64,000 nt of DNA, taken from contig OX638160.1 in NCBI GenBank assembly GCA_951804945.1, positions 25,110,001 to 25,174,000 on the forward strand, in the 5' to 3' direction. This document shows positions 3,662 to 41,850 of this stretch, piece by piece. Below the pieces are notes generated by a model. The model was not told the DNA's origin and searched no databases. It saw only the letters and a list, made by a program, of their open reading frames with translations. Positions within the stretch are counted from its first letter, which is position 1. Every line of letters starts with the position of its first letter. The position numbers and the translations under genes are program-made. The DNA is from Podarcis cretensis. Its lineage: Eukaryota.

Positions 3662-4195
3662 AAAGTCTTTAACTGCTGGTGGAAAGATAGCAAGGAAGGA
3701 GGGAGTCAGTTTAATTTTAAGAGACTTAATTAGAAATGAAAAGTCACTGCAGTTTACAATACCCCGAAAGCAAGAAATCCTGCTATTAAAGATTTTTTTT
3801 GTCCTTCAAGGGGGAAGTTCTGTGAAAATATTTCATAATAGCTGGTTCTGTTTTTTAAAGAAATGGTGCAATAGCTCCATCTTAGAAAGAGAGACTGACT
3901 AATATTGTGTTGCAATTACATCTTTAAAAGTCTTTAACTGCTGGTGGAAAGATAGCAAGGAAGGAGGGAGTCAGTTTAATTTTAAGAGACTTAATTAGAA
4001 ATGAAAAGTCACTGCAGTTTACAATACCCCGAAAGCAAGAAATCCTGCTATTAAAGATTTTTTTTGTCCTTCAAGGGGGAAGTTCTGTGAAGATATTTCA
4101 TAATAGCTGGTTCTGTTTTTTAAAGAAATGGTGCAATAGCTCCATCTTAGAAAGAGAGACTGACTAATATTGTGTTGCAATTACATCTTTAAAAG
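3662..4195. repeat. 265-bp tandem duplication
   Basis: 3662-3926 matches 3927-4191 with one mismatch seen (3827/4092); AAAG microhomology at the junctions. Confidence 0.95.
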
Positions 4196-5399: not shown

Positions 5400-6395
5400 A
5401 GTTTATCATTAGTAATCAATTGAAAAACAGGAAGCAAGGAACTGTAAGCGAACACTTTTTGAAATGCAAGACAGACACATATGGACTTTCTAAAGATCTG
5501 TACTGGAATCAGTGCTAATTAACTTGTTCCTAAGTGAACTGGAATTAGGGGGGAAATGGACAAGCTTGCACATGACACCAGTTTAGAATGGTGAAAAACA
5601 AAGCTGACTGCACAGAGCTCCAAAAGGGCATCTCCAAAACAGGGAAATGGGCAATAATAAGGCAAGTGAAGTTAAATATAAATGAAGTTGTGCATACTGC
5701 AGCAAACAAGCTGCATGTGGCTGTATGTACAGGCTAATAGGGTCTGAAAGATCTTTGGGTCATGATGAACAGCTCAATGAAAATAAGTGGGCAGCAACTG
5801 TAAGATCATTAAAATAAAACAGACCATATTGTAATGACCCGTGGTACAACTGCATTTGGAAAATGCGACCAAAAAAAGGCAACCAGAATGATCATGCGAT
5901 TGAAGCAGATTCCAGATGAAGCCAAACTGGTGTTTGGGGCTTTTCAGTTTTGAAAAATACACTGGGGTGGTGGTGGGGAAGACATGAGAGGTTGAGATTA
6001 TTATTTGCATGAGAAGAACATTAATTTTTTTTGTTCCTCGCTCATAATACCAGGTGTTGGAAGTAATTGGCAGGATTCAGGATGGACAAAATAAAGCACA
6101 TAATTAAGGAACAGATTGTCCTAGATGTGATGACCACTAGGCTTAAAATAGCATAAAGGAGGGAAGACAAACTAATGGAGGATCATTTTATCAATGAGTA
6201 TGAGCCATGCTAGCTACATCCAAACTCCAGGGGCAAGAGAATATGCCACTGAATATCAGTTGCTTGAGGATAGCAATGGGGAAAGGTTTTGCCTTCCCAC
6301 CCTACTTTTCGCTTCCCTAGAGGCATCCGATTTGTGACTATAAAAACAGGTTATTTGACTAGATGGACCTTTGGTTCATTCAGCAAGGCTCTTAA
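5400..6395 (+). mobile_element. Old degenerate CR1 LINE fragment
   Basis: Decayed FADDTKL..MVK.KADC.ELQKDL..L.EWA..WQ-like coding at ~5560-5690; CR1-like 3' end at ~6340-6395; edges approximate. Confidence 0.65.
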
Positions 6396-7022
6396 GGTCT
6401 ACCTAGTAATGGGAAACTTGCAGTCCTCCAGATGCTGCTAAACCACAGCTCCCGTCATTCCTGACCTCTGGCCGTGCTGATTGAGGCTATTGTGAACTGG
6501 AGTCTGACAACATCTGGAGGGCCGTAGGTTAGCCACCCCTGGCCTGAACTTATATGAGAATCGCACTTGGAGGGATAAGGTAACAGTCTACTTTATTCAA
6601 CGCTAGGACCATATAACACAGTGGAGGGTACACATCAAGAGCAGGAGTAAAGAGCTTTGGAACAAAAGAAGTGGGTATCATAGCAGTCAACAGTGACCTT
6701 GGAATCCCCACTGTAGATACCAAGAAAGAGCCAGCTGTTGGATCAGCCAGAATTGGAAGAAATGCTGTGCAATTCTATTATATAAAAGCAAGTCACTCAA
6801 GTTCAGTGTTGGTTATTCTCAATGCTGCATCTCTGCAAGGTAAGCAGGAAAATGGTGATGCTTTAGAGGACCAATCCTAGTCAACATTTTTGGGATCTTG
6901 CTCTTCCCAAGCCACTAATGCTATTGCAGATGTGATAGAATGATCTGAATGCTGATTCAGCATTCCAATTGTGTCTGAAATTTGGATTTGTGGTCCCAAG
7001 AGCTAAGAGGAGTGGCAAAACT

Positions 7023-21000: not shown

Positions 21001-24000
21001 CCAATGTTCTAGCCATTCCAGACAGCAGCCTATTTACAGAGGTTTCAGCATCTGAGAAAGTATGAGAAGACACAGGTCACTGTAGAAGACCAGAAGCTAA
21101 CAGACTGTCAGTCAGAGTGTAACTAACTGCTACCAAGAGATATTTTGTATATGAAGGAAATAGATACTGTATTTCTTGAAGTATGGAGTTGCAATTATAC
21201 ATGCCATGTTTTAGTGAGAAACAGGAGTAAATGTAGCCCATCTTCACTACATAATAGAATCTGCTTTTTCAAAAGACTCCAGTGAGGAAATTTAGCTGTT
21301 TCACACAATATTGACTAATGAAACAAACAGCAGCTAACATTTAGATTTCTATCTTTATGAGATTACTTTTTTAAAAAATGTTTGCAGATTTTTTTTTGGG
21401 GGGGGGGTTCCTGATTTCATTTTAACATAAAGCACTGATACCCAGCCACATAAAGGAAGCTGTAGTTTAAGTTACACTGCAGCTTTCAGTAATCTATATT
21501 TGGTGGTGTCTGTTTTACAAACCACTGCTTCATACTTAACACTACTAATTATAGAAAATGCTGTGACATAGCATGGTCACTTCACTCTGTACAAAACTGT
21601 GAACTTGTCTTATTCCAAGAAGCAGCTGCTATCAAGTTTTCTATCAAAATAATTAGGAGGAAAATGAATAAATTACATTTATGAACTCATATGCAAATAA
21701 ATAGGGAAAACTTCAACGAAACTTAAAATACTTATCAATATAACCACAATCAATCAATCAGTTTATTAGGGCATAGACCAGCAGTTTATAATCACAATCT
21801 GTTAACGTAGCACTAAAAACTAGCATTTATGGTGATACTTTAATTAAAATATATGCTCTATTCCATAAGCAGCACATATTTCATTTTCTTGCAGTCAGCA
21901 AACCTGTTGAGTTCAGTTATAAAAATAATATGACATTCAAGGCCTTATATTTAAAGAGTTTATCAAATTATCAACCGGAGTCTCAGATGGCTGTATTTAT
22001 ATGTTTGAAGCTGCCTTGCATTTGACCCTGAAAGGCAACCTAACAATATATTAAATGAAATAAACTGTTATGCTGTAAGGCAAAGTTGATTCATGGAGTG
22101 ACAAGATTTGAAGGGATCTGTTTGCCATCTGTCCAATCTGTAAGCTAAAGGATAATTCTCATATCAACATCCGTCCTTCTCCCCCAACTCCCAGATTGAA
22201 GTAGAACTAAATCCACAGAGCACTTGCAGATAAGAAAAAGTTGATAATTATTAGCTGAAGGGAAATTAGACAGATCATAAGTAATATTCTCACTAAAACT
22301 CCATATAGGGAGACAGTAGCACAGCATTTTAAGGGAGGAATTAGGCAAATCAATCTTCATTTTCAGCATTTGTTTCTTTGAATAATGCAGACACTAGACT
22401 TAGAATTAATTTAGGGTAATTTAATCATGTCAGTAATGATGGGTTTGAGTTACATCCCAAATATTTTGTTTAAAAATTCCTACAATACAGAACTGCAAAT
22501 AAGTTTCAGAACCAAGTTGTAAAGCGCACTACACTCTTACACATGCAGATACTATGACACATTGGTACAGGGGAGAGGAAAATGAGTTGATAAATTACAT
22601 CAATCAGCCAAATGGTTCTGCTAAGATGAGGTGTGTGCTCTAAGCTCTCTTTCTAAAGTGCTTTTAAATGGTATGAGAAATTATTTTTAAAAGAAACACT
22701 TTATCCAACAGGTGACAGTATTTAGATAACTCAGAGGAAAAATTAGATGATAGACTGCTTGATCATTCAGAAAGAAGATTCAAGAAGAGGGCGCTTAATT
22801 TCTGCCCAAAAAAGGTGATGAAACAAGCTTTCAATATCAAACTGATTTCAGCAGTGCATTATACAAATACTGCAAAACACAACATAAAGTCTCTAATGAA
22901 ACTTTTTAGAAAATACTATTTTTTTTTTAATCACATGCATTAATCACATAAGCAATTCTGCTGAAAGCACTCTCCAAATGTCCAGTGCCTTTCAAAAATT
23001 CTAGGGCTATGAATGCAGTGTACATAACTTGGCATTAACACATTTAGTTTTCTAGTTTTCCCACAGGTGTTATGCAGTTTGATCTTATCTAGTTTTATTT
23101 ATGCTTCTTCCAAATAAAATAACGAAGTGTTTCAAACAAGAAATGTATACTTACCCAGTTCGTGACTGTCCAACTTTATCACAAATATCTAAGATGAGCC
23201 CCCAGTCTTCAGCAGTATTCATTTCACTAGTTGCTTTTTCTAAGTGACACAAAAATGCTTGGAGTGAACTTTATCAAGTAAGTGAAACTTCAGTATCAAC
23301 TCTAAATAGAAATGCATCAAAACGGATATGGTCATCCTACTCTGAATTATGTTGACACATTCCTAGATGCAGCCCTAATGTAGCATTGTATAAAATTCAG
23401 GATGAAACAAAGCAATATATGAACTCTGAAGAAAACATAGCACACTTGTAGTTCTGAGGGTGTGAACATGTTCAATAGCAGCATCTCATTACTCAAGACA
23501 TTAGCACATTGGTTTGTCAAGTCAACACATTTCTGCTGCAGCCGCTCCAGCAGATCCTGCAAGCCAATAATAATCACCTACACTATCATGTACTTGCTTG
23601 AACTTTGCCTTGAAATGTAGCTCAAAAACACCATTCCTCTGAATTATAGTCAGACCCAAAGGTGGGGCTAGGAAGATCTGAAACAAGTTAGAACAGGCCA
23701 ATTCAGATTGGGATTTACCACCTCACCACCCACTGTGTAATACCTCTGCTGCTACCAGCCCTTCCTTCTTTCCAGATCTAACCTTTACAACAGAGTTGAA
23801 GGACCTGTGGCCCTCCAGATGTTGGGACTCCCACCATTTCTGGCTCAGGCTTATGAGCATTAAGAAGTCATCAACATCTTAATTAAGGGGTCTCCATCAC
23901 TGCCTTACAAGCAGGGACAGCAATGGGGAGCAGCTCTCAGCAATGGAGGCCTCAGGCAAGGCTTGAAACTCTCTACTTCCAGGAGTCCTCCATACTGTCA

Positions 24001-27000
24001 TTCTCTTTCCTAAGGATATGTTTGGAGAAAGGGGAAGGAGAATGACAAATCAATCATCTTTCATATCAGTCCTGCAATGGGGGAATGGAATCGGTCCCAG
24101 AGGCTGTAGCAATGAGCAAAACCTTCAGTTCACGGTTTCATTCCTGTTTCTGAAATTCAGTAGTATCACTACTCCAAGCTGTTTCAACATTTTATAACTG
24201 ATTGGATAATCCCGTGCTATTGTTAGCTGGTCAGTTTGCTAATTCAACTCTAAATACATACAGTTCTAGGGGGGGAAAGAAAACAGTTTTTCTCCAAGTC
24301 ACAACACTTGGCTGTACATAATGAACTTAAGCCCTTAAAGATTCCTCAGGTGTTCTGCAATACATATGCTATGGCATCCCACCTAGCTACAAGTGGAATG
24401 AAACTACCATTTGCTGTATGTCCTGGGGTAGCATTAAGTTGTAAAACCTAAGTTTGTTATATACCCAATATACAATCCTAAATATGCATTAAAAACAGAA
24501 TTAAGGTGATAATAGCTAATGTAAAGGTTTGATTTGCATAATAAACTCAAATGTTCATGTCTTTCTACAAAGAAATCAAAGATCTGACATCGGTATAATG
24601 TTAGTGCTGCTTCTGCAATGAGCAAGACTATTTTTATGAATTTATTGACAGATTTATTTTTTTGTAATGTCAGCTGGCTAGAATGCTTTCCAAACAATCT
24701 TGGACACAGTCTTATATGGCTCTGGTTCTTCAAGAAACCTCTGGTTGACAGCTATGCACACACATAATATTTTCCTTTCCAAACCAATTGCCTCCTACTA
24801 GCACACAGCCAGATGAAGCTACATCTCTACTAAAAATTAAACTACACCCCCATCCACCCCACCAAAAAAAAAAAAAAAAATCTGGGAAGAAGACAAGCCA
24901 GAAAGCTGTCTTATGACTTGTTCGAACTTCCAAGACTGATAATCTGAAGAATGTATTTCAGTCTGTAGCCTGCCTTATTTCCAAGATACAGAGCAGACTC
25001 AACAGTATTATAGGCACAAGAGAGATGTGGGGTTTGGGCAGGGGCTGGGTTGAATTAGACTGCTTTCTTATCATTACTGTTCCTTCCCTTGAAAGTCTGC
25101 TGAGGCAGCTGAGACCGTTCTGCACATCCTGCTCTGCCAGGAAACCAGCAATTCAGCACTATGGCAGTTGGGCACATGCTTTCATTCTCATGTATCTTTC
25201 ACAAGCTTACCATTCTTTTGCTTAATCTTTCAATATAATATTTCACACACAACAAAGTTAAAAATATTTTAAATAAATAATTATTAGTACAGGAATTACG
25301 GTATTAAACTAAACCATTTTGTACTATGTGCTAGGGTCTTCGATAACTTTAATATCCAAGACAGTGGTACCTCGGGTTACATACCCTTCAGGTTACACAC
25401 TCCGCTAACCTAGAAATAGTGCTTCAGGTTAAGAACTTTGCTTCAGGATAAGAACAGAAATAGGGCTACGGCGGTGCGGCGGCAGCAGGAGGCCCCATTA
25501 GCTAAAGTGGTGCTTCAGGTTAAGAACAGTTTCAGGTTAAGTATGGACCTCCAGAACTAATTAAGTACTCAGCCTGAGATACCACTGTACAGCTTTTGCA
25601 TCTAAATATCATGGCTTGCCCATAGACAGACATTATCACCATTTAAGTTAAAGTAAATACTCATAAACAAAAATGCTTACCTCCCTCAACCAGGACTAAT
25701 GACAGAAAACAGCATCTCTGCCTTTGAAAGTTTCCAGACTATAGTAAACCTGCAAGATGCTAATACTGCTATCAGCCCAGACTGGCTCACTCCTCTAGTA
25801 GGAGAGGAAGAACAAAGCACTGTCCTGTCTACCAACACTAATACATATCCAACAGTAATTAGGTCAAGCACCAGCTGTCCACAATAAACAAACCTGTAAC
25901 AAAATAAATCCTTGCAATAAAAAGCCACCTTAAGTATTCTAACTGCAAGTTAAAACCTATACATTTTTTAAAAATGTAAGATAGCATTCAAGGACCCAGG
26001 AATAAGGCATGTGAGCCTTGTGGGTTTAATAGCAATCAATCAATCAAACCTTTATTGGGACTTCCGGTCGGCGCCAGCGCTTAATGGCGGTCCGAGCCTC
26101 GAGCTCCGAGGCAGGACTGCTCCGTTAGTTCGGGTCTTACCCGCTACGGCAAGCGGGGGACCCCTAAAATCACAGGCGCGGAGCCTGTGAACAAAGGAGA
26201 TTCGGTGGGCACCTTTTGCGCCCCCCGGTACTGTGAGGGAGCCTTTTTAAAGGCTTCTGAGCGGCATCGGGGTAAGCGCGGTGCTGAGAGTCGTCACCCA
26301 GCTAGCGGAGTGAAGCCGCGTCGCCATGAGCGGAGAGCGCCGATTCCTTCCTGCAATTGGAATTTGACCACAACACCCGTGAGTAAGATTGGAAAAGTAA
26401 CGGGACTTTTAAAAAAATAAAATTGGCTGAAAACGGGAAAGGCAAAAATTAAGGAAGTCTGCCTCTCCGGAACTGCAGAAGGAATAAAGCAACGAAAATC
26501 AAGCTGCACTTAAAGGGAACCTTTCTAATTTTTTTAAGCTGTCAAACTGACATCGGACTTAAAACCTCCCCCCAGACTGGCAGGAGAAGGGGGGAAGGGA
26601 TTGGAACGTTGTTATCTGCTGGAAAATTAATGGAAAATTAAGAACTTCCATTGCCAAATCCCCTGGGGTCGGGCTGCCCAAACAAGACACCTGGGACGTG
26701 GTCTGTCAAACTCTGAGAAGTGGGGACTTGTTTGCAAAAAAGTTATCGGACCTTAGATGTACTTTGTTGCATTTTGGCCACATAGAAAAATAGAGACTTT
26801 ACAATTTGGATATTGGAAACTTTTGGCTACTGTTGTATTCCCTTGCTTCTTTGTTGTTTTTCCATCTTTGCCATTTGGATACAATTGAATGCTCCCTCTA
26901 GAGGGCTCTATCTGAAACTGTTGCACTTGAAAAAGTAACAGTGGGATTTTCCACTTGGGAATCAACTCTGTGAGAACGACCTTGAGGATATGAGTGCCCC

Positions 27001-30000
27001 TACAGATGAGATAGTAACAAGGCAGAAAGCAAAACAAGCTCATAAGAAAAGGGCCTCTATATCAGGAACTGCAGCTGTGCAGGAAAAAACACCAGCTTCT
27101 ATGGATCCTATGACTCAGGCTCTACTTAAAATAAATCAATCCCTGGAAGCATTGACAAAACTTTCGACAGAGAACTCTAAAAAATTAACAGAGTTGACAA
27201 CAAGGTTGGATGTGAATACGGCTAGTGTCGCATCGAACACAGATTCTATAAATAGATTAATCCAGGAAAATTCAGAAACACGAAAGATTGCAGAAAGTGC
27301 AAAAATAACAGCTGAAGAGACAAGGGAAAAATTTGGGCCTATTGTTAAAAAAGTGAATGAGCATGATGCAGCCCTCTCCTTACTGGAACTTCAACGTAAA
27401 GAGAAGAATTTAAAATTTAGATTGGTGCCTGAAGTGGAAGGGGACAACCTTGTGAAATTTCTCACAGAGAACATTATAACTTTTTGGCGGGAAGAATGGG
27501 AGGAAGATGAGGAACTTGAGATAATTTCAGCCTTTCGACTGGGCAGAAGGCAGGACAAAAAACCAAGGGATTGCTTAATTACATTGAGATCAAAAGAAGA
27601 AAGAGATAGAATACTGAATTTGCATTACCAAAAGGCATTGGTGATCCAAAATTGTCAGATACAGATTTTTAAGGACATTCCTAAATACATTTTAGAGGTG
27701 AGAACATATTACAAGAGTTTAGTAGACCTGCTGAAGAAAAACACCATACCATTCAGATGGGAATTTCCACAAGGATTGTCCTTTAACTTCAATGGAAGGA
27801 AGATTAAAATAAAAACAATTCAGGACAAAGAACTATTTCTAGAGAAGTATCTGGAGGATTTGCAGAAAGGAACCGTGGAGGAGAGGGAACCACCCGATAT
27901 AGCAAATCTGTCATTTGGACTTTCACTACCACCATCGGAGGAAGAGCAGAAGCTTGGAGCAGTTGGAGGAACAGCTACCTAAATACAAAATGTCTCTGCA
28001 ACTCCTTAGTTGGAACTGTAATGGTTTGAACCTTCCTCGGAAAAGAAGACAGGTTTTTCACATTCTGAAGAAAGAACAATTAGACATAATATGTTTGCAA
28101 GAAACCCATATTGCCAGGATACACAGGAAATTATTAATAAATAAGAGACTCGGTCAAGAATTCATCTCATCAGACAAAGTAAAGAAAAGAGGTGTGGTGA
28201 TTTATGCAAAGGAAAAGTTGGCCCCAAAATTAATATTTAAAGATGAACAAGGAAGATACCTGGCAATTGAAATACAAATTCAAGGAGAAAAGATATTAAT
28301 TGTGGGAGTTTATGCCCCAAATGAAGGGAAGGCCGAATTCTTTAGGAAGTTGCATGAGACATTAGTTGACTTTTTAGACTATAAAATCCTAATGATGGGA
28401 GACATGAACGGAGTTGTTTCAACAAACATGGATAAAGCACAGAGACAAGTGATTTCAAAAGAAGGGAGACTACCAAAGATCTTTTTCGAAATGACTGAAA
28501 CTATGGACTTGATTGATATTTGGAGAATAAAGAATCCTCTAGAGAGAGAGGGAACCTTCTTCTCTGAAGCAAAAATGACATGGACAAGAATAGACCAAAT
28601 TTGGATTTCTAGTAGTCTGGCGTCAAGAACAAAAAAAGTAGAAATCTGCCCAAAAACGTGCTCCGACCATAATGCGGTCAAGATGGAGATGAAACTAACA
28701 ACAACTGGTTCCTTTAGATGGAGAATGAATGACACCCTATTCAAGGATGAAGAGATCCATAAGAAGGCCCTTAAAACATTAAAAGATTATTTTGAGATCA
28801 ACAGGAAAACAGATGTGGAAAAAAGAATAATCTGGGACGCAAGCAAAGCCGTGATGCGAGGTTTCCTAATTCAACAAAATTCTATTAAGAGGAAGCAACA
28901 AAATGAAAAGAAGGAAAAAATTTTAGAAAAAATAAAAGAAGGAGAGAAGAAGTTGAGGTCTAAACCAAAGTCTCATGAGATTTTGAGAGAAATAAAGTTT
29001 CATCAGATGCAATACATGGAACTTATGAACCAACAAATAGAATGGAAGATAAAGCAAATGAGACAAAAAACTTTTGAGTCAGCGGATAAATGTGGGAAAC
29101 TTCTGTCATGGCAATTGAAAAAAAAGCAGAAAATGAACACGGTAACAAGTTTAGAAATGGATGGAAAGATTATCCACAAACCCAACGAGATTAACAATTG
29201 TTTTCAAAGCTTTTTTAAGAAATTGTACGCACAAGGGCCAACCAACGAGCAAGAAATAGAAGAATTCATTAGAAAATACGGTTTACCAAAAATCTCAGAA
29301 CAAAGTAAAAGGATCTTAAATGAGGAAATAACAGAACAAGAAATAGAGGGTGCCATTCAAAATATGAAATTGGGAAAATCACCAGGACCAGATGGCCTGA
29401 CGGCCAAATACTACAAATTGCTGAAAGAATGGCTGATACAACCATTGAAGGAAGTTTGCAATGAAATTTTAAAGGGGAAAAAGGCACCTGAATCGTGGAA
29501 AGAGGCTTTCATCTCACTTATACCGAAAACAGAGACTGAGAAGAACCAAGTTAAAAACTACCGCCCTATATCTTTACTTAATGTGGATTACAAAATTTTT
29601 GCAGACATTTTGGCAAAAAGATTGAAAAGAGTGTTGGCAGATGAGATTCATAAGGACCAAACAGGCTTTCTCCCAGGTAGACATATGTCAGACAATGTGA
29701 GGAACATTATAGACATTTTGGAGCTGCTGGACGTTGACATTAACAGGAAAGCAGTTTTGATTTTTGTGGACGCGGAGAAAGCCTTTGACAACATTTGTTG
29801 GACTTTTATGAAAAAGAATCTCCAAGGGATGGGGGTAGGACAAGGTTTTGAAAACGGTATAGGTGCAATATACTCTCAACAAAAGGCCAAATTAATTGTA
29901 AATAACGTGGTAACAGAAGAAATACCTATAGAAAAAGGTACACGACAGGGCTGCCCAATATCCCCTTTGCTTTTTATATCGGTCCTGGAGGTTTTGTTAA

Positions 30001-33000
30001 ACATGATTAGAAAGGACCAGTTGGTTAAAGGAGTTCAGGTCGGAGTTAGACATTATAAATTAAGAGCATTTGCAGATGACCTAGTATTGACTTTGCAACA
30101 GCCAGACACTAGTACTAAAAGAGTATTAGAATTAATTGAAACATTTGGTCGAGTAGCAGGTTTTAAATTGAACAGACAAAAAACGAAAGTGTTGGAAAAA
30201 AATTTAACAATGGAAGAAAGAGAGAGTTTCCAGAATGAAACAGGTTTGGAAATTACAAAAAGGGTAAAATACCTGGGGGTAAACTTAACATCCAAGAATG
30301 TGAATTTATTTAAGGATAATTATGAAAAATGTTGGTCAGAAGTTAAAAAGGATTTGGAAATATGGTCAAGGCTGAAACTTTCCTTGTTAGGCCGAATTGC
30401 TACCATTAAGATGAATGTATTGCCTAGAATGCTGTTTTTATTCCAGACGCTGCAGATTGTGGACAAGATGGATTGTTTCAAGAAGTGGCAGAAAGATATA
30501 TCAAAATTTGTCTGGCAGGGCAAAAAGCCCAGAATTAAATTTAAGATTTTAACTGATGCAAAGGATAGAGGGGGGTTTGCCCTGCCGGACTTAAGACTCT
30601 ACTATGAATCAGCAGCTTTCTGCTGGTTGAAACACTGGCTACTTCTTGAGAATACTGACATTTTGGATCTGGAAGGGTATGACAATAGTTTTGGTTGGCA
30701 TGCATATTTATGGTACGACAAGGTAAAGGTGTATAAAAGTTTTAAAAACCATATTGTAAGGAAAGCATTGTACAACGTTTGGAGTAGATACAAAGATTTG
30801 TGGGAAAGTAAAACCCCTAGGTGGGTGTCACCAATGGAAGCTAGGGAAGTAAAAAAGCTTAATATGGATTCTAAATGGCCAAAATATCATGAGATTATAG
30901 AATACGATGGTGAAAGGGTGAAACTTCAGAGTTATGAGAAACTAAAACCTAAGGTTCGAGATTGGTTGCATTACCATCAGATAAATGAGACGTTTAAACA
31001 GGACAGGAAAATAGGATTTCAGAAAGAGAAGTCAAAATTAGAAACAGAATTGTTGGAACCCAATACTAAGAATTTATCAAGAATGTATAACTTGCTGTTA
31101 AAATGGAATACACAGGATGAAACGGTGAAATCAGCTATGATTAAATGGGCACAAGACATAGGTCATGATATTATGTTTGCTGACTGGGAACAGTTATGGA
31201 CCACCGGTATTAAATTTACTGCATGTAATGCTTTAAAAGAAAATATTATGAAAATGATCTACCGGTGGTACATGACCCCAGTCAAGCTTGCAAAAATTTA
31301 TCATTTGCCTAATAATAAGTGTTGGAAATGTAATGAGACTGAAGGCACTTTTTACCACCTTTGGTGGACCTGCCCAAAGGTTAAAGCTTTCTGGGAAATG
31401 ATCTATAATGAAATTAAGAAGGTTCTTAAGTGGACTTTTCCTAAGAAACCAGAGGCTTTCCTCTTGGGCATGGTGGGCCAAGTGGTGTTAAGGAAGGATA
31501 GGACATTCTTTATGTATGCCACTACAGCAGCAAGAATTCTACTGGCAAAGTATTGGAAGACGCAAGAACTACCTACTCTGGAAGAATGGCAAACAAAGGT
31601 GATTGACTTTATGGGACTGGCTGAGATGACGGGCAGAATCCGGGACCAGGGGAAAGAGACAGTGGAAGAGGACTGGAAGAACTTCAAGATATATCTTAAA
31701 AATAATTGTAAAATTGAGGAATGTTAAGATGTCAGGGGGTAAGAAGTAAAGAATTGCAGCAGTAAATAAAAAAAAAACTTAAGAAATATTTATGAAAAAG
31801 AACTAAGACAATGGACTTAAGGGTTGCTAAAGAATTTTAAACAAGGATGCAGGGATAGGGAGGTATGGGGAAGTCAAAGAAAAAAAGACTATGAATTGAT
31901 GATTATGAAGTAATACTGTGTTACATTGTTCTTCATTTTATGTGTGGAAAATTAATAAAAATCATTATAAAAAAAAAAAACAATCAAACCTTTATTGCAT
32001 TAGCATACAGCCATAGCAGGATAAAAAAATAAAATAAAATAAAAAAATGCTAGAGACAAACAACCAAACAAAATTCAAAGCGATATTACTGCGAATGTAT
32101 ATAAAGCATATAATGGCCCCAAAATAGGCTCGGGACATTAGGTTAAAAAGGTAATAAAAGAATTAAGACAGGTCCAGGTCTAGGACACACTACCCCGTCA
32201 GAGTAGCCCTGAGTTTCAAGGCCTGCACTATAAAGATTGCCACCCCACGTGTAACTTGGGGATTTGCGTCCACAAGAAGCATTCTCAAACAGTCTTCCTT
32301 AGATGTGATGGTGGACGGGATCAAGAGGAGGAGCTTAGTTCTTATTAGCTCATAAATAGGACAGTAGAAAAAGAAATGTATGAAGTCCTCTACTTCATTC
32401 ATTGTGCATGGACATAGACGCTGAGTAATAGGGGTCTTAGAGTAAATCCCCTGCAGGAAGGCCGTGGGTATAGAATGGAAACGGGCCATGGTAAACGCTC
32501 TTCTCAAATTGGGCTCCTTCAGGTCTATCAAGTAGTTGGCAAGTGATCTTACCACTTTCACTTTAGGGAGCCACATGGAGAGGCGAGCTGTGGTGGACTG
32601 TGCCCGGTCCATGGCCTCGTCTCTAGTAAGAATCCAGGCCCGGATTTTATGTTGATCCCAAGCTGACAGCGTGTCCAGATCTGGGAGGGAGTAGCGTGCA
32701 GTAATAGTCTCCATGGCCTTGGACCATTTATTGCTATGAGAACTAGTTAAAAAGGCTTGCCTGGCTAAAAGGGAACCTGGGGCTTTGATTAATTTACAAT
32801 AAAAACTAATAATTCTAATGTGGGCTCTTGCAACAATGGAGGGGAGGCCCAGTTCTGTTCTTAACTGTGCAGCAACCGAGCCCTTGGGGAGACCCAGTAC
32901 CTTTCGTGCAAAGGAGTTTTGTAGAATCTCGAGCCGTTGTAGTGTTTTTAAATTCCACCCCCAGATTTCAACCCCATACAGTAGCATCGGGAGGACTTTG

Positions 33001-36000
33001 CTGATAAATGCTTTTCTGATTGGTGGAACCAACTGGCCGCCTTTTGCATAGAAGAATTTCTCCAAAGCTTTGATGGTTCTACGGGCAGCCAGGATGGACA
33101 TATTTAGGTGAGCTGTCCAGCTAAGCCCATACTGAAAAGTGATACCCAAATACTTGAATGCTGAACAATATTCAATAGAGTGGCCCTCAAAATTCCAAAA
33201 TGGCTTCCGAGTTTTCGTGCCAAAAGTAAGAATTTTGGTTTTGGCGAAATTGATTTTGAGGGAGTTGGTATCACAATATGTCATGAGCCCTCTGAGCATG
33301 TTGTTTAAGCCCTGCTTGGTTAAAGACAGTATCACCATGTCGTCCGCGTAGAGTAATATGGGGATCTTGAGCTGTTGTAAAGAGGGGGCAGATTGGTTTA
33401 GGGCCTTCATGGTTGTAACGATGTCATTGATGTAGAAATTAAATAGAAAAGGAGCCAAGAGGCAGCCCTGTTTGACCCCTTTATTCAGAGGGAAAGAATC
33501 AGAAAGGGCTCCCAGAGGGCCAAATTTTACTCTGGCTGATATATCATTGTGAATTTCCATAAGAAGGTGGAGGAGCCTCTTATCTATGTTGGTGTAACTA
33601 AGCTTCTGCCATAGCCTATCTCTAGGGATGGAGTCGAAAGCGGAGGTCAGGTCCACAAAAGCCACGTGTAGTTTGCAGTTAAACCTGTTTAGGTATTTAT
33701 AAATCAGGGTAAATAGAACAAGACATTGGCCAGATGTACTATGACCTTTACGGAATCCAGCCTGTTCTGGGTGGAATAGCTTTGTTTCTGCCCACTCGAT
33801 TAATTTCTCTAATTTAATAGCATTTGACTGCCATCACAGGCCTGAAGTGCTTGAACACCAAAAAAGGCCAGAAGCCCAATGGTGGCATAACTAAAAATAT
33901 GTAATACTGCATTATTTCTATAATCCCTGGTATTAGTAATTTAAAAAATAATAAATGCTGTATACTATGGTAACACCAACACATTATTCAAAGCAGCACT
34001 AAATTAATTTGTGGCTTTATTTTATTTAATTAAAATAATTACATTAAAAAGGATCAAACTCTGCCCACAGGCTTGTGATCTAAACTAGAGGTGGGAAGAC
34101 TTTAGGCCTGTTGGACCTACTTTATTTGTTTTACTTCCACACAAGGATCTACCAGTACCACATGCAAAATATATACAGTGATAATTAAATAACAGGGTGC
34201 ATTTCTGAATACCTTTTGGGCTTTGAACTTTATTTTCACTACCAGAACTGAACTCCCAGTCCTTTCATATGAAACCCCAATCCCAGTCAACTTTCCTTAT
34301 TCCAGCAGCCTGATATAGGTGGGAAAGTCATTTTGTTGTTGCAATTAACAACCAAGTAAGGAATCCTTGACAATCTATTGCAAATCCTGATCTACTTTCT
34401 GCCCTCTTCTAACCTAAACAACTGCATTTTTTTCACTGATCAGATTTCCTGGTTTAGCCCAGTTCGCAAACAGCAACTTTCTCTGGTAAGAAAGCAATGG
34501 CTACCGCACGGCCACCACCACAATGCTATTTCAGTTGAAGAAAGAAAAAGATAGTCATATTGAAGCTACATGACTTCTCTTCTAGCTCCTCCATGGAATT
34601 CATTCTCAGGAATAGAATCTGCAGTGTTGCTTCCCAAACAAAATTAAATACTTACTATTAATGCAAGATGCAGCCTTTTACTATGAATGTTTACTCAAAA
34701 GTAAGGCCCACCATGTTTACTAGAACACACACAAATGTGTGTGTATTCAGTTGCAACCCAAGTTTTGACAGTGCTGTAGTTAGCTTTTTGAGTTCAGTGA
34801 CTGTGCTCGCAAAGTAATGTTAAAAACTATGGTGGAAATGAAGTATCCTTTTCAAAGAATGTTGGCTTGTCACGTTGTTTGAACAAGGAATGCTGACAGG
34901 TTAATTACATAAGTCACCTTTGCAACCAATGGTTTGAAGCTGGCTTGTTTTAGAAACTTACTAGTAAACTGTGTTTTCTAGCATGTGTAACAGAACAAGC
35001 AAAAATTATCTGAAAGGGGAACAAATCTCTGAAAAGTGATATGGATCAAAGCTTGTAGGCCCAATGCTTTGCTTGGACTCACTGCAGTTCATCCATACAG
35101 CACTACACAGTGTGGGACAGAGGGAGAGAAGGAATTCAGTGAAGCACCGTGTAAGCTCTGATAAAAACAAACATTATGTTTTTACATGTCATCAGTTTAT
35201 TCTACCTTCAATTCAAACATTACTAGAGTGCTGGACAACTTCATTAGTGAGCTACACCAGAAACACTAAACAAATCCAATGCATTTTATGGTAGTACACA
35301 ATCCTTCATTGCAATCCATGATGAATCAGCCATTACATCCATCACTCCTCATTTCTGAGGTTCGCAGCATCATCTGATTGACCACTTCTTGGGCCTATCT
35401 GGACATCCCTTTGACACATATTGTGAAACTGGAAGGTCTTAAGGCTTGTGCAAACATATTCACTCCCTCTCCCTGCTTCTCTGTACTGTGGGAGAAACAA
35501 ACATTTGAACCTTAACATTCCAGTTCTTTTAACACAGGAGCTCCCCTGATGCTGGCACATTAATCTTCCCCTGTGGGAGGAAAGTGCAGGACAGGCAGGA
35601 AAGTTACTATATGAACTTGTCTGTTCCCAATCTTTCCCCAGGGAAATCTTGATACAAAAATAACATCTGAATAAGACTGTGTGCTCAGCTATCCAGTGGC
35701 CCCTCTTTGGTGTGACAGAACAAGGAAGTTCTTATTTGCTGGACATTCTATGCTCAGTCTCTTCTGAAACTACCGTTTCCCCTGGATTTCTGCATCTGAA
35801 GACATAATACAAAAGCTGCATTTTGCATTCATACTTTGTTTCAGCTCCCCTCAGACTATCCCACATTAACAGGTGTGGCCTTGTGACAAATATCCACATG
35901 TTTTTATGAATCACTGATGACTCTACATAAATACTGAAGTCAGCCAGTCATGAGCTGAATGAATTCCAGCTTACAACTGACAACAATCTTGCTAAAGCTC

Positions 36001-38421
36001 TGTTGTCATTAAACTACGAGTGCAAAAGCTGCTACCTCTCTACATATTATATAGCTGCTTCCAACATATTAATGTCATTAGTGTTAAGTTCTGTATAGTA
36101 TTGACCCTATCTACCCCAAGCCTTTTGACCTTTAGTTCCTCTTTCTCTTACCAAAAAGAATATATATTTTAGAGATAAGCCAAATATGAATGAGAACTGG
36201 GCCAAAACAAACAAGATGAATTTTAACAGGGAGAAATGTAAAGTATTGCACTTGGGCAAAAAAAAATAAATGAGAGGCACAAATACAAGATGGGTGACAC
36301 CTGGCTTGAGAGCAGTACATGTGAAAAGGATCTAGGAGTCTTGGTTGACCACAAACTTGACATGAGCCAACAGTGTGACGCGGCAGCTAAAAAAGCCAAT
36401 GCAATTCTGGGCTGCATCAATAGGAGTATAGCATCTAGATCAAGGGAAGTAATAGTGCCACTGTATTCTGCTCTGGTCAGACCTCACCTGGAGTACTGTG
36501 TCCAGTTCTGGGCACCACAGTTCAAGAAGGACACTGACAAACTGGAACGTGTCCAGAGGAGGGCAACCAAAATGGTCAAAGGCCTGGAAACGATGCCTTA
36601 TGAGGAACGGCTAAGGGAGCTGGGCATGTTTAGCCTGGAGAAGAGGAGGTTAAGGGGTGATATGATAGCCATGTTCAAATATATAAAAGGATGTCACATA
36701 GAGGAGGGAGAAAGGTTGTTTTCTGCTGCTCCAGAGAAGCGGACACGGAGCAATGGTTCCAAACTACAAGAAAGAAGATTCGACCTAAACATTCGGAAGA
36801 ACTTCCTGACAGTAAGAGCTGTTCAACAGTGGAATTTGCTGCCAAGGAGTGTGGTGGAGTCTCCTTCTTTGGAGGTCTTTAAGCAGAGTCTTGACAACCA
36901 TATGTCAGGAGTGCTCTGATGGTGTTTCCTGCTTGGCAGGGGGTTGGACCCGATGGCCCTTGTGGTCTCTTCCAACTCTATGATTCTATGATTCTATGAA
37001 TGGGTAACAATTCAGAGTGAGTGGCTCATTTTAAACAATTCCTACAATGAAGACACTGTAGGAAAGATTATGAATGTACCATACAGACCATAATATACAA
37101 TGATCCTGTGTATGTGTGTATGTGGGAAAGGGAGCTGGCCATATATATACAGTATACACACTGGTAGGTCACAGATGGCTGTAACTTCCAAGTGCATAGC
37201 CAACCCTATCCATGACAAGTAATTTTAATCAGGTGGTAAGGATTTTATAACCCACAAGACCTTCTACAAAACAGTTTACAACAGCAAATACCATCTGGCA
37301 AACCACTAGAACTGGAAGCCGCACACAGTTAAAAGCCCATTACTTCCCCTTTGGTGGACCTTGGGAACCATAGTTTGTTGAGGATGCTGAGAACTGCACC
37401 TGTGCATGAAGCAAACTGCAGTTCCCAGGATTCTCCCCTCTCCCAGGAAGGGTGTCAGGGCTTTAAATGTATGATGTGTATGCAACCTATCTAAAAATCA
37501 CATCCATCTTATTACAGGAATTCTGAAGCAGTCCCAACAACAAAAAGTTACTGGATAGGCACTCATAGTGGGAGAAGAGGAGATAGAAAGGGCTGAGAGC
37601 TACCAAGTGTAACTAACTTAAAGAAAGAACACATAACTTGTGAATGTACAGTGGTACCTCGGGTTAAGAACTTAATTTGTTCTGGAGGTCCGTTCTTAAC
37701 CTGAAACTGTTCTTAACCTGAAGCACCACTTTAGCTAATGGGGCCTCCTGCTGCCACCACGCGATTTCTGTTCTCATCCTGAAGCAAAGTTCTTAACCCG
37801 AGGTACTATTTCTGGGTTAGCGGAGTCCGTAACCTGAAGCGTTTATAACCTGAAGTGTCTGTAACCCGAGGTGCCACTGTACTTACCTTTGGGCAAATCA
37901 CACTCTGCCAACTTAAGCTACCTCCTAAGATGTGCTGCAGCGATAAAAGGGAGAACCAACCTACACATTTCCCGAGCTCTGGGGCGGATTTTAACCTTAA
38001 TTTTTTAAAAAAATAATCTGGAAAATAAAGAAGTGTGGCGTGGTGGGGTGGGGAAGAGACCCCTTGTCCTCTCTTAAACAGCTTTGAAAGATGGAAATAA
38101 AGGCGATGGAAAGACACATGACGCGCCTTTCCAGAGCTAAGCCCCACCCTGCCTGACATATGGGAAAGGGAACTTGACAAAGGCGAGGCGGGACCCTCGT
38201 GCAGGGAGAAAAGAAAGGCAGGTGGGAGGCGGGTCGACCCCCGAGGGGAGATGGGGAGGGGGTCGCACCCAGGACGGAGGAGGGAAGGAAGGGCTGGCGA
38301 TGGGGCAGGAGGGCGAAGGGGAATCTGTGGGTCGGGCCCAGACTGAGGCGACTGACTGCCCGGGCCTCCTTCCTGACTCACCCACATCCTGGTCGAAGGG
38401 GTTGCTGGTGAAGAGCGGCAT
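9092..38421 (-). CDS. STAM: STAM (signal transducing adaptor molecule 1, ESCRT-0 subunit), complete spliced CDS: complement(join(9092..9335,9649..9824,10368..10521,11437..11491,11726..11813,14085..14173,16173..16267,16859..17051,17336..17426,18995..19141,19984..20079,20174..20249,23155..23239,38382..38421)); 1629 nt, 542 aa
   Basis: Starts [34 protein letters not shown] and ends YSQKALL*. VHS, UIM (EEEDLAKAIELSL), SH3 ([27 protein letters not shown]) and ITAM-like YTKL..YSKL are all present. All introns are GT-AG with consistent phases. Head-to-head with HACD1, as in other amniotes. Confidence 0.97.
9649..9824 (-). CDS. STAM: STAM exon 13 (176 nt)
   Basis: [32 protein letters not shown]...; tttag| and |gtaatt; phase fits both neighbours. 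Confidence 0.92.
10368..10521 (-). CDS. STAM: STAM exon 12 (154 nt, coiled coil/ITAM)
   Basis: [51 protein letters not shown]; ttcag| and |gtatgt. Confidence 0.95.
11437..11491 (-). CDS. STAM: STAM exon 11 (55 nt)
   Basis: (T)[17 protein letters not shown](R); tctag| and |gtaaga. Confidence 0.94.
11726..11813 (-). CDS. STAM: STAM exon 10 (88 nt)
   Basis: [29 protein letters not shown]; tctag| and |gtaagc. Confidence 0.94.
12858..12872 (-). promoter_or_regulatory. Candidate CTCF core motif
   Basis: Minus strand ACCACTAGGTGGCAG matches the CCASYAGRKGGC consensus. Confidence 0.5.
12965..13085 (+). mobile_element. 5S rRNA-derived SINE remnant (SINE3-type)
   Basis: gaaactaagcagatctgggtctggccaatgcctagatgggtgacc resembles the 5S internal control region (GAAGCTAAGCAGGGTCGGGCCTGGTTAGTACTTGGATGGGAGACC); followed by an A-rich tail. 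Confidence 0.55.
13231..13400 (-). mobile_element. Sauria SINE 3' fragment (divergent subfamily)
   Basis: ggtaaaggtaaaggacccctgga...ccagtc...gcgctcatct...; middle differs from the other copies. Confidence 0.8.
14085..14173 (-). CDS. STAM: STAM exon 9 (89 nt)
   Basis: (M)[29 protein letters not shown]; cgcag| and |gtaagt. Confidence 0.93.
14263..14621 (-). mobile_element. Sauria SINE, full length
   Basis: Minus strand begins GGGACGCAGGTGGCGCTGTGGGTTAAACC and ends with (ACCTTT)-type tail; TSD ATTTTGTTTATA at 14251-14262 and 14622-14633. Confidence 0.9.
16173..16267 (-). CDS. STAM: STAM exon 8 (95 nt, SH3)
   Basis: [31 protein letters not shown]; tatag| and |gtgagt. Confidence 0.95.
16310..16440 (+). 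mobile_element. tRNA-derived SINE with CR1-type 3' tail, second copy
   Basis: B box gggttcgagcccc; ttcctgcattgcagg..actagatgatc..ttccaactcta. Confidence 0.65.
16859..17051 (-). CDS. STAM: STAM exon 7 (193 nt, UIM end and SH3 start)
   Basis: (A)[12 protein letters not shown]...[30 protein letters not shown]; tccag| and |gtaaat. Confidence 0.95.
17336..17426 (-). CDS. STAM: STAM exon 6 (91 nt, start of UIM)
   Basis: [30 protein letters not shown]; gtaag| and |gttggt. Confidence 0.93.
18029..18062. repeat. (TAT)n microsatellite, tail of a SINE/L2 remnant
   Basis: Direct reading. Confidence 0.9.
18995..19141 (-). CDS. STAM: STAM exon 5 (147 nt, end of VHS)
   Basis: [49 protein letters not shown]; tacag| and |gtaaag. 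Confidence 0.95.
19984..20079 (-). CDS. STAM: STAM exon 4 (96 nt, VHS)
   Basis: [32 protein letters not shown]; tctag| and |gtattc. Confidence 0.95.
20082..20103. repeat. (AG)11 microsatellite forming the polypyrimidine tract of STAM exon 4
   Basis: Directly abuts the acceptor AG at 20080-20081 on the minus strand. Confidence 0.92.
20174..20249 (-). CDS. STAM: STAM exon 3 (76 nt, VHS)
   Basis: [25 protein letters not shown]; atcag| and |gtacgt. Confidence 0.95.
23155..23239 (-). CDS. STAM: STAM exon 2 (85 nt, VHS)
   Basis: (E)[28 protein letters not shown]; cttag| and |gtaagt. Confidence 0.95.
25362..25587. mobile_element. Tc1/mariner-type MITE
   Basis: TIRs CAGTGGTACCTC../..GAGATACCACTG, TA at the right flank; inverted relative to the 37649 and 60803 copies. 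Confidence 0.85.
26990..27982 (+). CDS. L1 ORF1p (330 aa; coiled coil + RRM + CTD nucleic-acid chaperone)
   Basis: Heptad-rich N-terminal half, then [40 protein letters not shown], typical of L1 ORF1. Confidence 0.92.
   Translation: MSAPTDEIVTRQKAKQAHKKRASISGTAAVQEKTPASMDPMTQALLKINQSLEALTKLSTENSKKLTELTTRLDVNTASVASNTDSINRLIQENSETRKIAESAKITAEETREKFGPIVKKVNEHDAALSLLELQRKEKNLKFRLVPEVEGDNLVKFLTENIITFWREEWEEDEELEIISAFRLGRRQDKKPRDCLITLRSKEERDRILNLHYQKALVIQNCQIQIFKDIPKYILEVRTYYKSLVDLLKKNTIPFRWEFPQGLSFNFNGRKIKIKTIQDKELFLEKYLEDLQKGTVEEREPPDIANLSFGLSLPPSEEEQKLGAVGGTAT
27990..31727 (+). CDS. L1 ORF2p (1245 aa; APE endonuclease + reverse transcriptase + CCHC)
   Basis: SWNCNGL, LQETH, GDMNG, RIDQIW, SDHNA (EN); [39 protein letters not shown] (RT); CWKC-x8-H-x4-C. 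The first ATG is at 27990; the track's 27915 start is a TTG. Confidence 0.96.
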   Translation: MSLQLLSWNCNGLNLPRKRRQVFHILKKEQLDIICLQETHIARIHRKLLINKRLGQEFISSDKVKKRGVVIYAKEKLAPKLIFKDEQGRYLAIEIQIQGEKILIVGVYAPNEGKAEFFRKLHETLVDFLDYKILMMGDMNGVVSTNMDKAQRQVISKEGRLPKIFFEMTETMDLIDIWRIKNPLEREGTFFSEAKMTWTRIDQIWISSSLASRTKKVEICPKTCSDHNAVKMEMKLTTTGSFRWRMNDTLFKDEEIHKKALKTLKDYFEINRKTDVEKRIIWDASKAVMRGFLIQQNSIKRKQQNEKKEKILEKIKEGEKKLRSKPKSHEILREIKFHQMQYMELMNQQIEWKIKQMRQKTFESADKCGKLLSWQLKKKQKMNTVTSLEMDGKIIHKPNEINNCFQSFFKKLYAQGPTNEQEIEEFIRKYGLPKISEQSKRILNEEITEQEIEGAIQNMKLGKSPGPDGLTAKYYKLLKEWLIQPLKEVCNEILKGKKAPESWKEAFISLIPKTETEKNQVKNYRPISLLNVDYKIFADILAKRLKRVLADEIHKDQTGFLPGRHMSDNVRNIIDILELLDVDINRKAVLIFVDAEKAFDNICWTFMKKNLQGMGVGQGFENGIGAIYSQQKAKLIVNNVVTEEIPIEKGTRQGCPISPLLFISVLEVLLNMIRKDQLVKGVQVGVRHYKLRAFADDLVLTLQQPDTSTKRVLELIETFGRVAGFKLNRQKTKVLEKNLTMEERESFQNETGLEITKRVKYLGVNLTSKNVNLFKDNYEKCWSEVKKDLEIWSRLKLSLLGRIATIKMNVLPRMLFLFQTLQIVDKMDCFKKWQKDISKFVWQGKKPRIKFKILTDAKDRGGFALPDLRLYYESAAFCWLKHWLLLENTDILDLEGYDNSFGWHAYLWYDKVKVYKSFKNHIVRKALYNVWSRYKDLWESKTPRWVSPMEAREVKKLNMDSKWPKYHEIIEYDGERVKLQSYEKLKPKVRDWLHYHQINETFKQDRKIGFQKEKSKLETELLEPNTKNLSRMYNLLLKWNTQDETVKSAMIKWAQDIGHDIMFADWEQLWTTGIKFTACNALKENIMKMIYRWYMTPVKLAKIYHLPNNKCWKCNETEGTFYHLWWTCPKVKAFWEMIYNEIKKVLKWTFPKKPEAFLLGMVGQVVLRKDRTFFMYATTAARILLAKYWKTQELPTLEEWQTKVIDFMGLAEMTGRIRDQGKETVEEDWKNFKIYLKNNCKIEEC
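32190..33812 (-). pseudogene. RT and C-terminal part of the RTE-X-like ORF (open frame, no start, endonuclease missing)
   Basis: The track ORF 32190..33665 extends upstream without stops ([30 protein letters not shown]...) up to the 5' truncation point. Confidence 0.85.
36193..36994 (+). mobile_element. Young 5'-truncated CR1 LINE (3' ~800 bp)
   Basis: ORF 36290..36919 ([38 protein letters not shown]); (ATTCTATG)n tail; TATGAATG TSD at 36185-36192 and 36995-37002. Confidence 0.95.
37649..37879. mobile_element. Tc1/mariner-type MITE
   Basis: TA|CAGTGGTACCTCGGGTTA ... TAACCCGAGGTGCCACTG|TA. Confidence 0.9.
38382..38421 (-). CDS. STAM: STAM exon 1 (coding part, 40 nt)
   Basis: [13 protein letters not shown]+G, donor G|gtgagt, inside a CpG island. 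Confidence 0.95.
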
Positions 38422-40660: not shown

Positions 40661-40739
40661 ATATGTTTTATTTTAAAAAATAATTAAAAATAAAATAAAT
40701 GCATATTTCCACCACACTTGTCAGGGAAGATGGTCCAAG

Positions 40740-41850
40740 GGGATGGTCCTGTTCGAGTGAAAGAGCAACGTGGCGCGGGAAGGGTGCGGACGAGTCCCAG
40801 CTTGAGAGGCGAGTCTCGTCATCCTGGCGCACAGAGGCGGCCGGGTCTCTGGTATCCTCCGGAACCCCTGCGCGGCCGGGAGGGGGCCGGGCGAAGCCTC
40901 CGAGCAGCTGTCCAAGCAGCAGCTGCCGCCGGGCTCAGCGAAGACGGATGGGGCGAGCGCCAGAGCCAGCTGCCTGCCGGCCTGCCTGCCTGCCTGCCTG
41001 CGCGCCCGACTCCGCCTCCGCCTCGCCTCCGCCTCCTCCGGCCGCCCCCCACGTGCGTCCGTCTGTCTCCGCCTGGCCTCCGGGGAGGGAAAGCATGGCG
41101 TCTAGCGAAGAGGACGGCGGAGCCGGCAACGGCTCGCTGGAGGAGAAGGAGAGCGGCAAGGCGGCCGCCCCTCGGCGCCGCGGCTCCGTCACCACCGCCT
41201 GGCTCATCTTCTACAACATCACCATGACGGCGGGGTGAGTGAGGGAGGGAGGGAGAGCGCGCGCCCGGCGGCGGAGCTGGCCGAGCGGCGGGGCCGGGGC
41301 TGTGTCGCCGGCTGCTCTCTCGCCCACTCGCCCGGGGAGGAGAGAGGGGCAGCCGGGGAGCCCTCGGACCAGGGGGGCGGCGGGCGGCGCAGAAGGGCGG
41401 CGGCCGCGGGGGCGAAGCTCGGGCTTGCCTGCATTTCCTAATACGGTGCAGCCTTCCAGCAAGGCGAGCACGTCATGCCTCTAACCCGCCGCAGAGGTTA
41501 AGTATAGCCCCAGCCCGGAATGCCGGGCGGGGGTGCACTGGGGCGGCGGCGGCGGCGGCGGCTGCATGGGGCAGACTGCTTCCCTCGGCATAATTTACGG
41601 CGGCTGCCGCGCAAGACGCATCCCCGCTCGGCCACTGGCGGCCGCTTGCTTCCCCTGGCGAGCGAGCGAGCGAGCCGCGCTCCCCTCCCACTCCCGCAGG
41701 AGCGCAGACTGCTGCCCTCCGGAGAACGTGCCAGAAGCTGAGCGGGGACAGACTGCGGGTTACGCCACAAGCCAACCCTCAGCCACCCTCCAGAACAGAA
41801 GAGCCTTGTGCCACCTTGAAGTGTGCTGCCCAGCTTTCGACGTGGACTCA
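40740..41850 (+). promoter_or_regulatory. CpG island / HACD1 promoter, exon 1 and start of intron 1
   Basis: Very GC- and CpG-rich; separated from the STAM island by ~1.9 kb of AT-rich DNA; edges approximate. Confidence 0.85.
41095..41234 (+). CDS. HACD1: HACD1 exon 1 (coding part from MASSEED; possible extension to 40948)
   Basis: Strong Kozak aagcATGg; donor GG|gtgagt. Confidence 0.9.

What the first reader, a model, noticed from the sequence alone, without database searches (positions are those of the whole stretch)
26025..33822. Nested insertion: intact L1 inside the 3' tail of a young RTE-X-like LINE, both TSDs perfect
Seen: outer TSD TTTAATAGCA (26025-26034 / 33813-33822) and inner TSD CAATCAAACCTTTATTG (26041-26057 / 31981-31997). 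Removing the L1 rebuilds the host 3' end (...GCAATAAAGGT-TTGA-TTGA-TTGA). Removing the host rebuilds the empty site. Neither element has a stop or frameshift in its ORFs, so both look recent and the order is certain. Together they make up ~7.8 kb of the 15.1-kb STAM intron 1. Three allelic states are predicted.
Basis: seen in the sequence. Interest (0 to 1): 0.72.

Follow-up and report, generated by a model that had tools for sequence, protein, structure and literature searches.

The report
Young L1 nested in truncated LINE
A young full-length L1 jumping gene sits inside the tail of an older, truncated jumping gene in the first intron of a lizard's STAM gene; public sequence data show the site empty in a related species and, on one contig, filled by the older element alone, so this is an ordinary stacked insertion that likely still varies between individuals.

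Summary
Confirmed and ordinary. Both target-site duplications (TSDs) are exact and each string occurs only twice in the window. The inner element is a 5,923-nt L1 with both ORFs open, one of at least 405 5'-intact copies in this genome. The outer element is a 5'-truncated, non-autonomous 1.85-kb copy of a family with 93 exact tails; homology to longer copies stops at the outer TSD. All three predicted states appear in public contigs: nested (two samples), host-only (one contig, another sample of the same organism label) and empty (one spanning contig in organism B; organisms C, D, E lack the host at the right junction). There is no targeting: 1 of 93 host tails carries an L1 end, and 0 of 29 other L1s sit in one. 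The host is RTEX-like by exclusion only. The insertions double STAM intron 1 (7.35 to 15.14 kb); an effect on STAM is untested.

The parts
26025..26034 (.). Outer TSD, left copy (3' side of the host LINE)
   Evidence: a single copy in the empty allele of organism B (record 25)
26035..26057 (-). Distal piece of the host 3' end: poly(A) hexamer and (TTGA)n tail; 26041-26057 is the left copy of the inner TSD
26058..31980 (+). Full-length L1, 5,923 nt, antisense to STAM; 932-nt 5' UTR, poly(A) tail
26990..27982 (+). L1 ORF1 (330 aa)
   Evidence: best PDB hit human L1 ORF1p 2ldy, weak (E 0.28); Atlas lead Transposase_22
27990..31727 (+). L1 ORF2 (1245 aa): APE endonuclease, RT, CCHC
   Evidence: Pfam; human L1 ORF2p E 7e-180 over residues 4-1204; motifs
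31981..31997 (.). Inner TSD, right copy (17 bp), holding the host's poly(A) hexamer
31981..33811 (-). Main piece of the 5'-truncated RTEX-like LINE, sense to STAM; open RT-to-C-terminus frame ends at 32190
33813..33822 (.). Outer TSD, right copy (5' side of the host)
23240..38381 (-). STAM intron 1 (15,142 nt); exon 1 coding part 38382-38421, exon 2 23155-23239
   Evidence: gene name recalled from the peptide, not from a database call

Best explanation
A 5'-truncated LINE (RTEX-like by exclusion) and a full-length L1 lie one inside the other in STAM intron 1, each with an exact TSD, and likely arrived by two independent, untargeted target-primed reverse transcription events, the L1 second. Step 1 (geometry shown, chemistry inferred): an active copy of the host family nicked intron 1, its (UUGA)n RNA tail paired with two bases of the target to prime, and synthesis stopped after about 1.85 kb, leaving a 10-bp TSD. 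Step 2 (geometry shown, chemistry inferred): the L1 endonuclease nicked the T-rich strand of the host tail and a complete cDNA went in, in the opposite orientation, duplicating 17 bp. The host insertion is absent from four related organisms. The L1 is absent from one other sample of the same organism label, so it is likely still polymorphic. Both are likely neutral or slightly harmful passengers (inferred).
For: Exact TSDs. Host boundary fixed independently by longer copies. The 17-bp inner TSD is typical: 18 of 19 other L1 copies with both ends in view have TSDs of 11-21 bp, mostly a pyrimidine followed by A/G-rich sequence, and 3 of the 18 also begin with C. The outer TSD fits the family's range of 8-20 bp (23 of 93 copies gave a TSD). 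Tail-to-target microhomology is the family rule: 20 of 20 pure tails have at least 1 base; after dropping two short alignments, 15 of 18 have at least 2. Relative age agrees with the order: 6 private columns in 5.9 kb of L1 against 19 copies, versus 8 substitutions plus a 3-nt deletion in 1.8 kb of host against 14 fetched loci, two of them the same copy. Alleles: nested junctions in X1 and X2, joint 26048->31985 in X4, one spanning empty contig in X5; contigs of X6, X9 and X11 leave the window at 33813. No targeting: 1 of 93 tails, 0 of 29 L1 flanks, and 1 of 8 poly(A)+CAATCAA hits lies in a host tail.
Against: The host-only allele rests on one contig of one run, with 26 aligned letters on the short side, below the tool's 31-letter rule for a bridge. 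That run looks like Hi-C, which makes chimeric joints. The joint skips 5,936 nt rather than 5,940. X1 and X2 come from one study and may be the source individual. For X6, X9 and X11 the left flank was not shown. No long read spanning the whole 7.8 kb was seen. Under uniform insertion, a 5'-intact L1 in a 30-bp window of one of 93 tails has a chance of about 7e-4: low, but the pairing was picked after the fact.
Confidence: 0.92

Rival explanations
1. This L1 family is a target-specific (Tx1-like) element that seeks the (TTGA)n tail of the host LINE.
For: The chance of landing in such a tail is low under a uniform model (about 7e-4). Target-specific Tx1 elements are reported in crocodilians (PMC5753468, passage).
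Against: 0 of 29 other 5'-intact copies have the tail upstream; the 18 TSDs read are unrelated sequences; 1 of 93 tails is occupied.
Confidence: 0.02
2. The arrangement is an assembly artefact joining two repeats.
For: Both elements are multicopy, and no listed public piece spans the whole stretch.
Against: Both TSDs are in register. Contigs of X1 and X2 run from the unique left flank into the L1 start (25 letters only) and from the host 5' end into the unique right flank. The empty and host-only forms match the predicted joins.
Confidence: 0.02
3. The host-only allele is derived, the L1 having been deleted by recombination between its TSDs, or it is a Hi-C chimera; the L1 would then be fixed in the species.
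For: Single contig; many random joints in X4; its right contig ends at a TTAA site (33814), as a restriction-ligation library would give; 4-nt length difference at the joint.
Against: No GATC, GANTC, CTNAG or TTAA site lies at the joint. The contig is the unique flank contig itself, at flank depth. X4 shares the G at 34124 with all four relatives, where the window has A, so it looks like the older haplotype.
Confidence: 0.07
4. The insertion has a regulatory effect on STAM: the host's sense-strand poly(A) hexamer, duplicated by the L1, or the L1 5' UTR truncates or re-starts STAM transcripts.
For: AATAAA lies at 31996 and 26056 on the STAM strand; the intron is doubled.
Against: Six AATAAA already lie on that strand in the rest of the intron. 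The L1 is antisense to STAM.
Confidence: 0.08

Closest known systems
Lizard clade 1 L1 families of Anolis carolinensis (PMC5381506, passages incl. Table 2)
   Same: 5' UTR 932 nt (range 792-1,465), spacer 7 nt (0-110), ORF2 3,738 nt (3,645-3,813), 3' UTR about 250 nt (194-570), ORF1 993 nt (762-1,125).
   Different: Total 5,923 nt is below the reported 6,151-6,703. The 5' terminus GGACTTCCGGTC resembles the zebrafish consensus quoted in the paper. No tree with the anole families was possible.
Polymorphic full-length L1 insertions in the green anole (PMC3787681, passages)
   Same: Young full-length L1s are mostly polymorphic, and truncated elements are fixed more often. Here the full-length L1 is missing from one sample that has the truncated host.
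   Different: That paper cites 1,006 L1 copies in all for Anolis. This genome has 405 exact 5' ends of one family group; the counts are not like for like.
Transposition-in-transposition nested retroposons (TinT; PMC3014933, passages)
   Same: A younger element inside an older one, with the host overlap made by the TSD, gives the order of activity.
   Different: Nothing in kind; here both TSDs are still perfect and the intermediate allele is seen.
RTEX clade LINEs (Repbase; PMC3905857 and PMC5753468, passages)
   Same: Long ORF1 plus APE-RT ORF2 in a full-length copy (L091, about 5.7 kb); RT outside CR1, L2, L1 and Bov-B-type RTE in the tree.
   Different: No esterase or any other Pfam domain in ORF1; no labelled RTEX sequence was available for comparison.
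Reptilian Bov-B (RTE clade; PMC13295347, sections 3 and 4.1) and zebrafish ZfL2-2 (PMC2666801, passages)
   Same: 3' microsatellite-like tail. ZfL2-2 has 3' microhomology in about 80% of insertions, as this host family does.
   Different: Bov-B has (CAA)n, a Tn-TA signature and rarely tail-like targets. The host family has (TTGA)n, no T run about 10 nt upstream (T in 6-8 of 23 at -12 to -10) and 27.5% RT identity to the Bov-B-type element of this genome.

Membership tests
L1 clade | ORF2 with APE, RT and C-terminal CCHC, homologous to L1 ORF2p over its length | tested here: met
   E 7e-180 over residues 4-1204 against human L1 ORF2p, versus 1e-25 over about 300 residues for the host ORF2; motifs
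L1 clade | ORF1 of coiled coil-RRM-CTD type | tested here: inconclusive
   No Pfam hit; best PDB hit L1 ORF1p at E 0.28; Atlas row with Transposase_22 in 22% of members at 0.92
L1 clade | Poly(A) tail and variable-length TSD | tested here: met
   18 of 19 copies with both ends in view have TSDs of 11-21 bp after a poly(A) tail
L1 clade | RT phylogeny with labelled L1 and Tx1 references | not testable with these tools
   No curated references; the lone L1 row fell inside the RTE group, likely a long-branch artefact
Target-specific Tx1 | Insertion into one fixed target sequence | tested here: not met
RTEX clade | RT groups with curated RTEX sequences | not testable with these tools
   No labelled RTEX sequence was available; the hits are unnamed or carry generic names
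RTEX clade | RT outside CR1, L2, L1 and RTE proper | tested here: met
   Host group 99.9/94, separated from the CR1/L2-type rows by 99.9/100 and outside the group holding the Bov-B-type row (97.5/93) (same picture in the quick tree). The labels of the in-genome CR1, L2 and Bov-B rows are recalled from their peptides.
RTEX clade | Substantial ORF1, unlike RTE/Bov-B (PMC3905857) | tested here: met
   551-aa ORF1 from the first Met in L091
RTEX clade | SGNH esterase in ORF1 (reported in members of RTEX, not stated for all) | tested here: not met
   0 Pfam families at E<=1; Atlas hits all below 0.9
RTE clade (Bov-B) | Rudimentary ORF1, Tn-TA insertion signature, RT in the Bov-B group | tested here: not met
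Nested retroposon insertion | Host halves in one orientation, overlapping by the inner TSD; pre-insertion alleles exist | tested here: met

The most novel reading that the evidence does not exclude
A segregating full-length L1 allele changes STAM dosage in a wild lizard: by duplicating the host LINE's sense-strand poly(A) signal and placing its CpG-rich 5' UTR 2.8 kb from exon 2, it cuts STAM transcripts short or starts chimeric ones, giving a three-allele series (empty, host-only, nested) at an ESCRT-0 gene.
Probability: 0.08. Interest if true: 0.5.

Novelty: new member of a known kind. Interest (0 to 1): 0.2.

Why it matters
Little by itself. It is a clean, homoplasy-poor marker: the host insertion separates organism A from four relatives, and the L1 likely separates haplotypes within A. 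It also shows that both families were active recently: 16 of 19 sampled L1 copies keep both ORFs (chosen as best 5' matches, so biased), and one host-family copy (L091) keeps both ORFs open, which would allow a retrotransposition assay of an RTEX-like LINE. It would matter more only if STAM expression differed between alleles.

Tried and rejected
Target-specific L1: rejected. This locus as a source element: no 3' transduction of the host tail elsewhere (only the window among 8 pattern hits), and a 32-mer with two private L1 bases occurs once in the genome. Tn-TA signature for the host: not seen. The X4 right contig ending at 33815 was first read as a sign of an empty allele, then set aside because it coincides with a TTAA site. 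Expression: no RNA holder listed for organism A, which is no evidence either way; no RNA run was laid. Clade naming: the paper that defines RTEX was not held; the protein search gave no clade names; the careful tree did not finish, so one search is a quick tree and one search uses 31 of its 81 rows. Domain searches on host ORF1 found nothing. Literature: 0 papers hold STAM + intron + LINE-1 insertion + lizard; none of the 20 papers listed holds 'RTE-X'; searches gave no title on a lacertid RTEX family (listings only). Subscription papers and Repbase were not searched and no supplements were read, so the host family may already be named.
Full report
Setting. The window is G000:C12:25110001-25174000 of a 1.51-Gb genome. 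The closest named proteins to the host element are from Podarcis muralis at 94-95% identity, then Anolis at 39-42%, so this is a lacertid lizard. The gene on the minus strand reads [19 protein letters not shown]... across a GT-AG intron at 38381-23240, 15,142 nt; I name it STAM from recall of that peptide.

Observation. The two TSD strings occur exactly twice each, at the stated places. The 17-mer cannot be chance (about 1e-10 per place). The 10-mer could be (0.29 expected copies in the window), but longer copies of the host family match the window only up to 33811, so the boundary is fixed independently. Uninterrupted copies end in GCAATAAAGG(TTGA)n, which is what removing the L1 restores. 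The insert is 7,788 nt, 51% of the intron.

Inner element. It is 5,923 nt on the plus strand: 932-nt 5' UTR, 330-aa ORF1, 7-nt spacer, 1245-aa ORF2 with endonuclease, FADD and CCHC motifs, and a poly(A) tail. ORF2 matches human L1 ORF2p at E 7e-180 over residues 4-1204. ORF1 has only weak L1 ORF1p leads. The part lengths fit lizard clade 1 L1 (PMC5381506, passages), though the total is slightly short. A 28-mer of the 5' end occurs 405 times. I fetched 20 of the best 5' matches; 19 had the 3' end in view, at 97.5-99.7% identity; 16 of 19 keep both ORFs and 18 of 19 have TSDs of 11-21 bp. The nearest differs from the window copy at 15 positions, and 6 columns are private.

Outer element. About 1.85 kb on the minus strand, 5'-truncated inside RT, so non-autonomous. 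It is 96-99% identical to the 14 loci compared and has 8 private substitutions and a 3-nt in-frame deletion unique in the assembly. A full-length copy, L091 (about 5.7 kb), has a 551-aa ORF1 with no Pfam domain and an ORF2 with APE and RT. In RT trees the family and its squamate-named and unnamed relatives form a well-supported group outside the CR1-, L2-, L1- and Bov-B-type rows of this genome, weakly next to mostly unnamed elements (quick tree, 81 rows, 31 of those rows, 99.9/94). The reference labels are recalled and no curated RTEX sequence was available. A long ORF1 separates RTEX from RTE (PMC3905857, passages), so 'RTEX-like' is reasonable but membership is untested.

Alleles. I laid 7 of the 24 listed runs. 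X1 and X2 (organism A, one study, possibly the source individual) have contigs from the left flank into the L1 start and from the host 5' end into the right flank. X4 (organism A, another sample, with different SNPs) has a flank contig that joins 26048 to 31985, skipping the L1. X5 (organism B) has one 2,897-nt contig covering 25600-26019 and 33813-34300, the empty site with a single TSD. Contigs of X6, X9 and X11 (organisms C, D, E) align only from 33813 and run on for 468, 467 and 1,386 letters that are not host; their left flank was not displayed, but the first two lengths match the 466 letters of X5. Against this reading: the X4 joint has 26 letters on its short side, below the tool's 31-letter rule; the run has many random joints typical of Hi-C; and the skip is 4 nt shorter than predicted. 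For it: no Hi-C cut site lies at the joint, the contig is at flank depth, and X4 keeps the base at 34124 that all four relatives have.

Targeting. None. 0 of 29 other 5'-intact L1s have the host tail upstream. Of 93 exact host tails, only the window copy is followed by an L1 3' end; four others have L1-like matches of 72-87% within 400 nt, which look like old copies. Of 8 genome-wide hits for an L1-type poly(A) followed by CAATCAA, one is in a host tail, this one. The uniform chance of such a hit is about 7e-4 for the tail and 0.03 for any part of a host copy (assuming 1.2 kb per copy). The pair was chosen after the fact, and A-rich targets after a pyrimidine suit this L1.

Mechanism. Two rounds of target-primed reverse transcription, inferred from established LINE biology. 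For the host, TSDs were found for 23 of 93 copies (8-20 bp). In all 20 with a pure tail the TSD begins by continuing the repeat; leaving out two 52-nt alignments, 15 of 18 share at least 2 bases, against about 9% expected. The window copy shares 2. This resembles zebrafish ZfL2-2 (about 80% 3' microhomology; PMC2666801, passages) and differs from reptilian Bov-B (PMC13295347, sections 3 and 4.1). Private divergence of about 0.1% (L1) against about 0.5% (host) agrees with the order.

Effect on STAM. Untested. The host's AATAAA is duplicated on the STAM strand (31996, 26056), but six others lie in the rest of the intron. In anoles full-length L1s tend to stay polymorphic, read as purifying selection (PMC3787681, passages).

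Novelty. Nested retroposons are found by the thousand (PMC3014933, passages). A search for STAM, intron, LINE-1 insertion and lizard found 0 papers. The scan's two earlier notes returned for this genome concern other loci, and none matched the host protein. Verdict: real, well supported, ordinary; interest 0.2.

Noticed in passing
L091:1166-6288 (minus strand; G000:C7): Full-length copy of the host family with both ORFs open, about 5.7 kb, with a TSD of at least 10 bp; a candidate active RTEX-like LINE. ORF1 has no Pfam domain and no Atlas hit at 0.9 or above.
   Followed up: partly
L091:6088-6111 (minus strand): ORF1 begins with QSKIDSFF, which fits the recalled PCNA-binding PIP-box pattern; also present in L096, not found in the other 8 of 10 loci.
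   Followed up: partly
L096 (G000:C19:31390500-31399500): ORF1 part lies on the strand opposite to ORF2 and the tail, as in a 5'-inverted insertion.
   Followed up: no
G000 genome-wide: 405 exact copies of a 28-mer at the L1 5' end; 16 of 19 sampled best matches keep both ORFs, suggesting a large recent L1 burst.
   Followed up: partly
window 26058-26069: The L1 starts GGACTTCCGGTC, like the zebrafish L1 5' consensus quoted in PMC5381506; it holds an ETS-type core (recalled).
   Followed up: no
window about 36240-36920 (+): Open 225-aa frame of a CR1-type LINE fragment (label recalled) in the same intron; at least 40 copies at 97-100%.
   Followed up: partly
window 25361-25591 and 37645-37882: Two related short elements with terminal inverted repeats, in opposite orientation 12 kb apart in intron 1, MITE-like.
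   Followed up: no
L198 and L211: Host-family tails abut 72-77% L1 matches, probably the reverse nesting: host inserted into an old L1.
   Followed up: no
L087-L090, L095: At least two further, more distant families of the same LINE group in this genome (58% RT identity for L090).
   Followed up: partly
window about 40700-41300 (+): GC-rich region with a frame ending [13 protein letters not shown], probably exon 1 of HACD1 head-to-head with STAM (name recalled).
   Followed up: no
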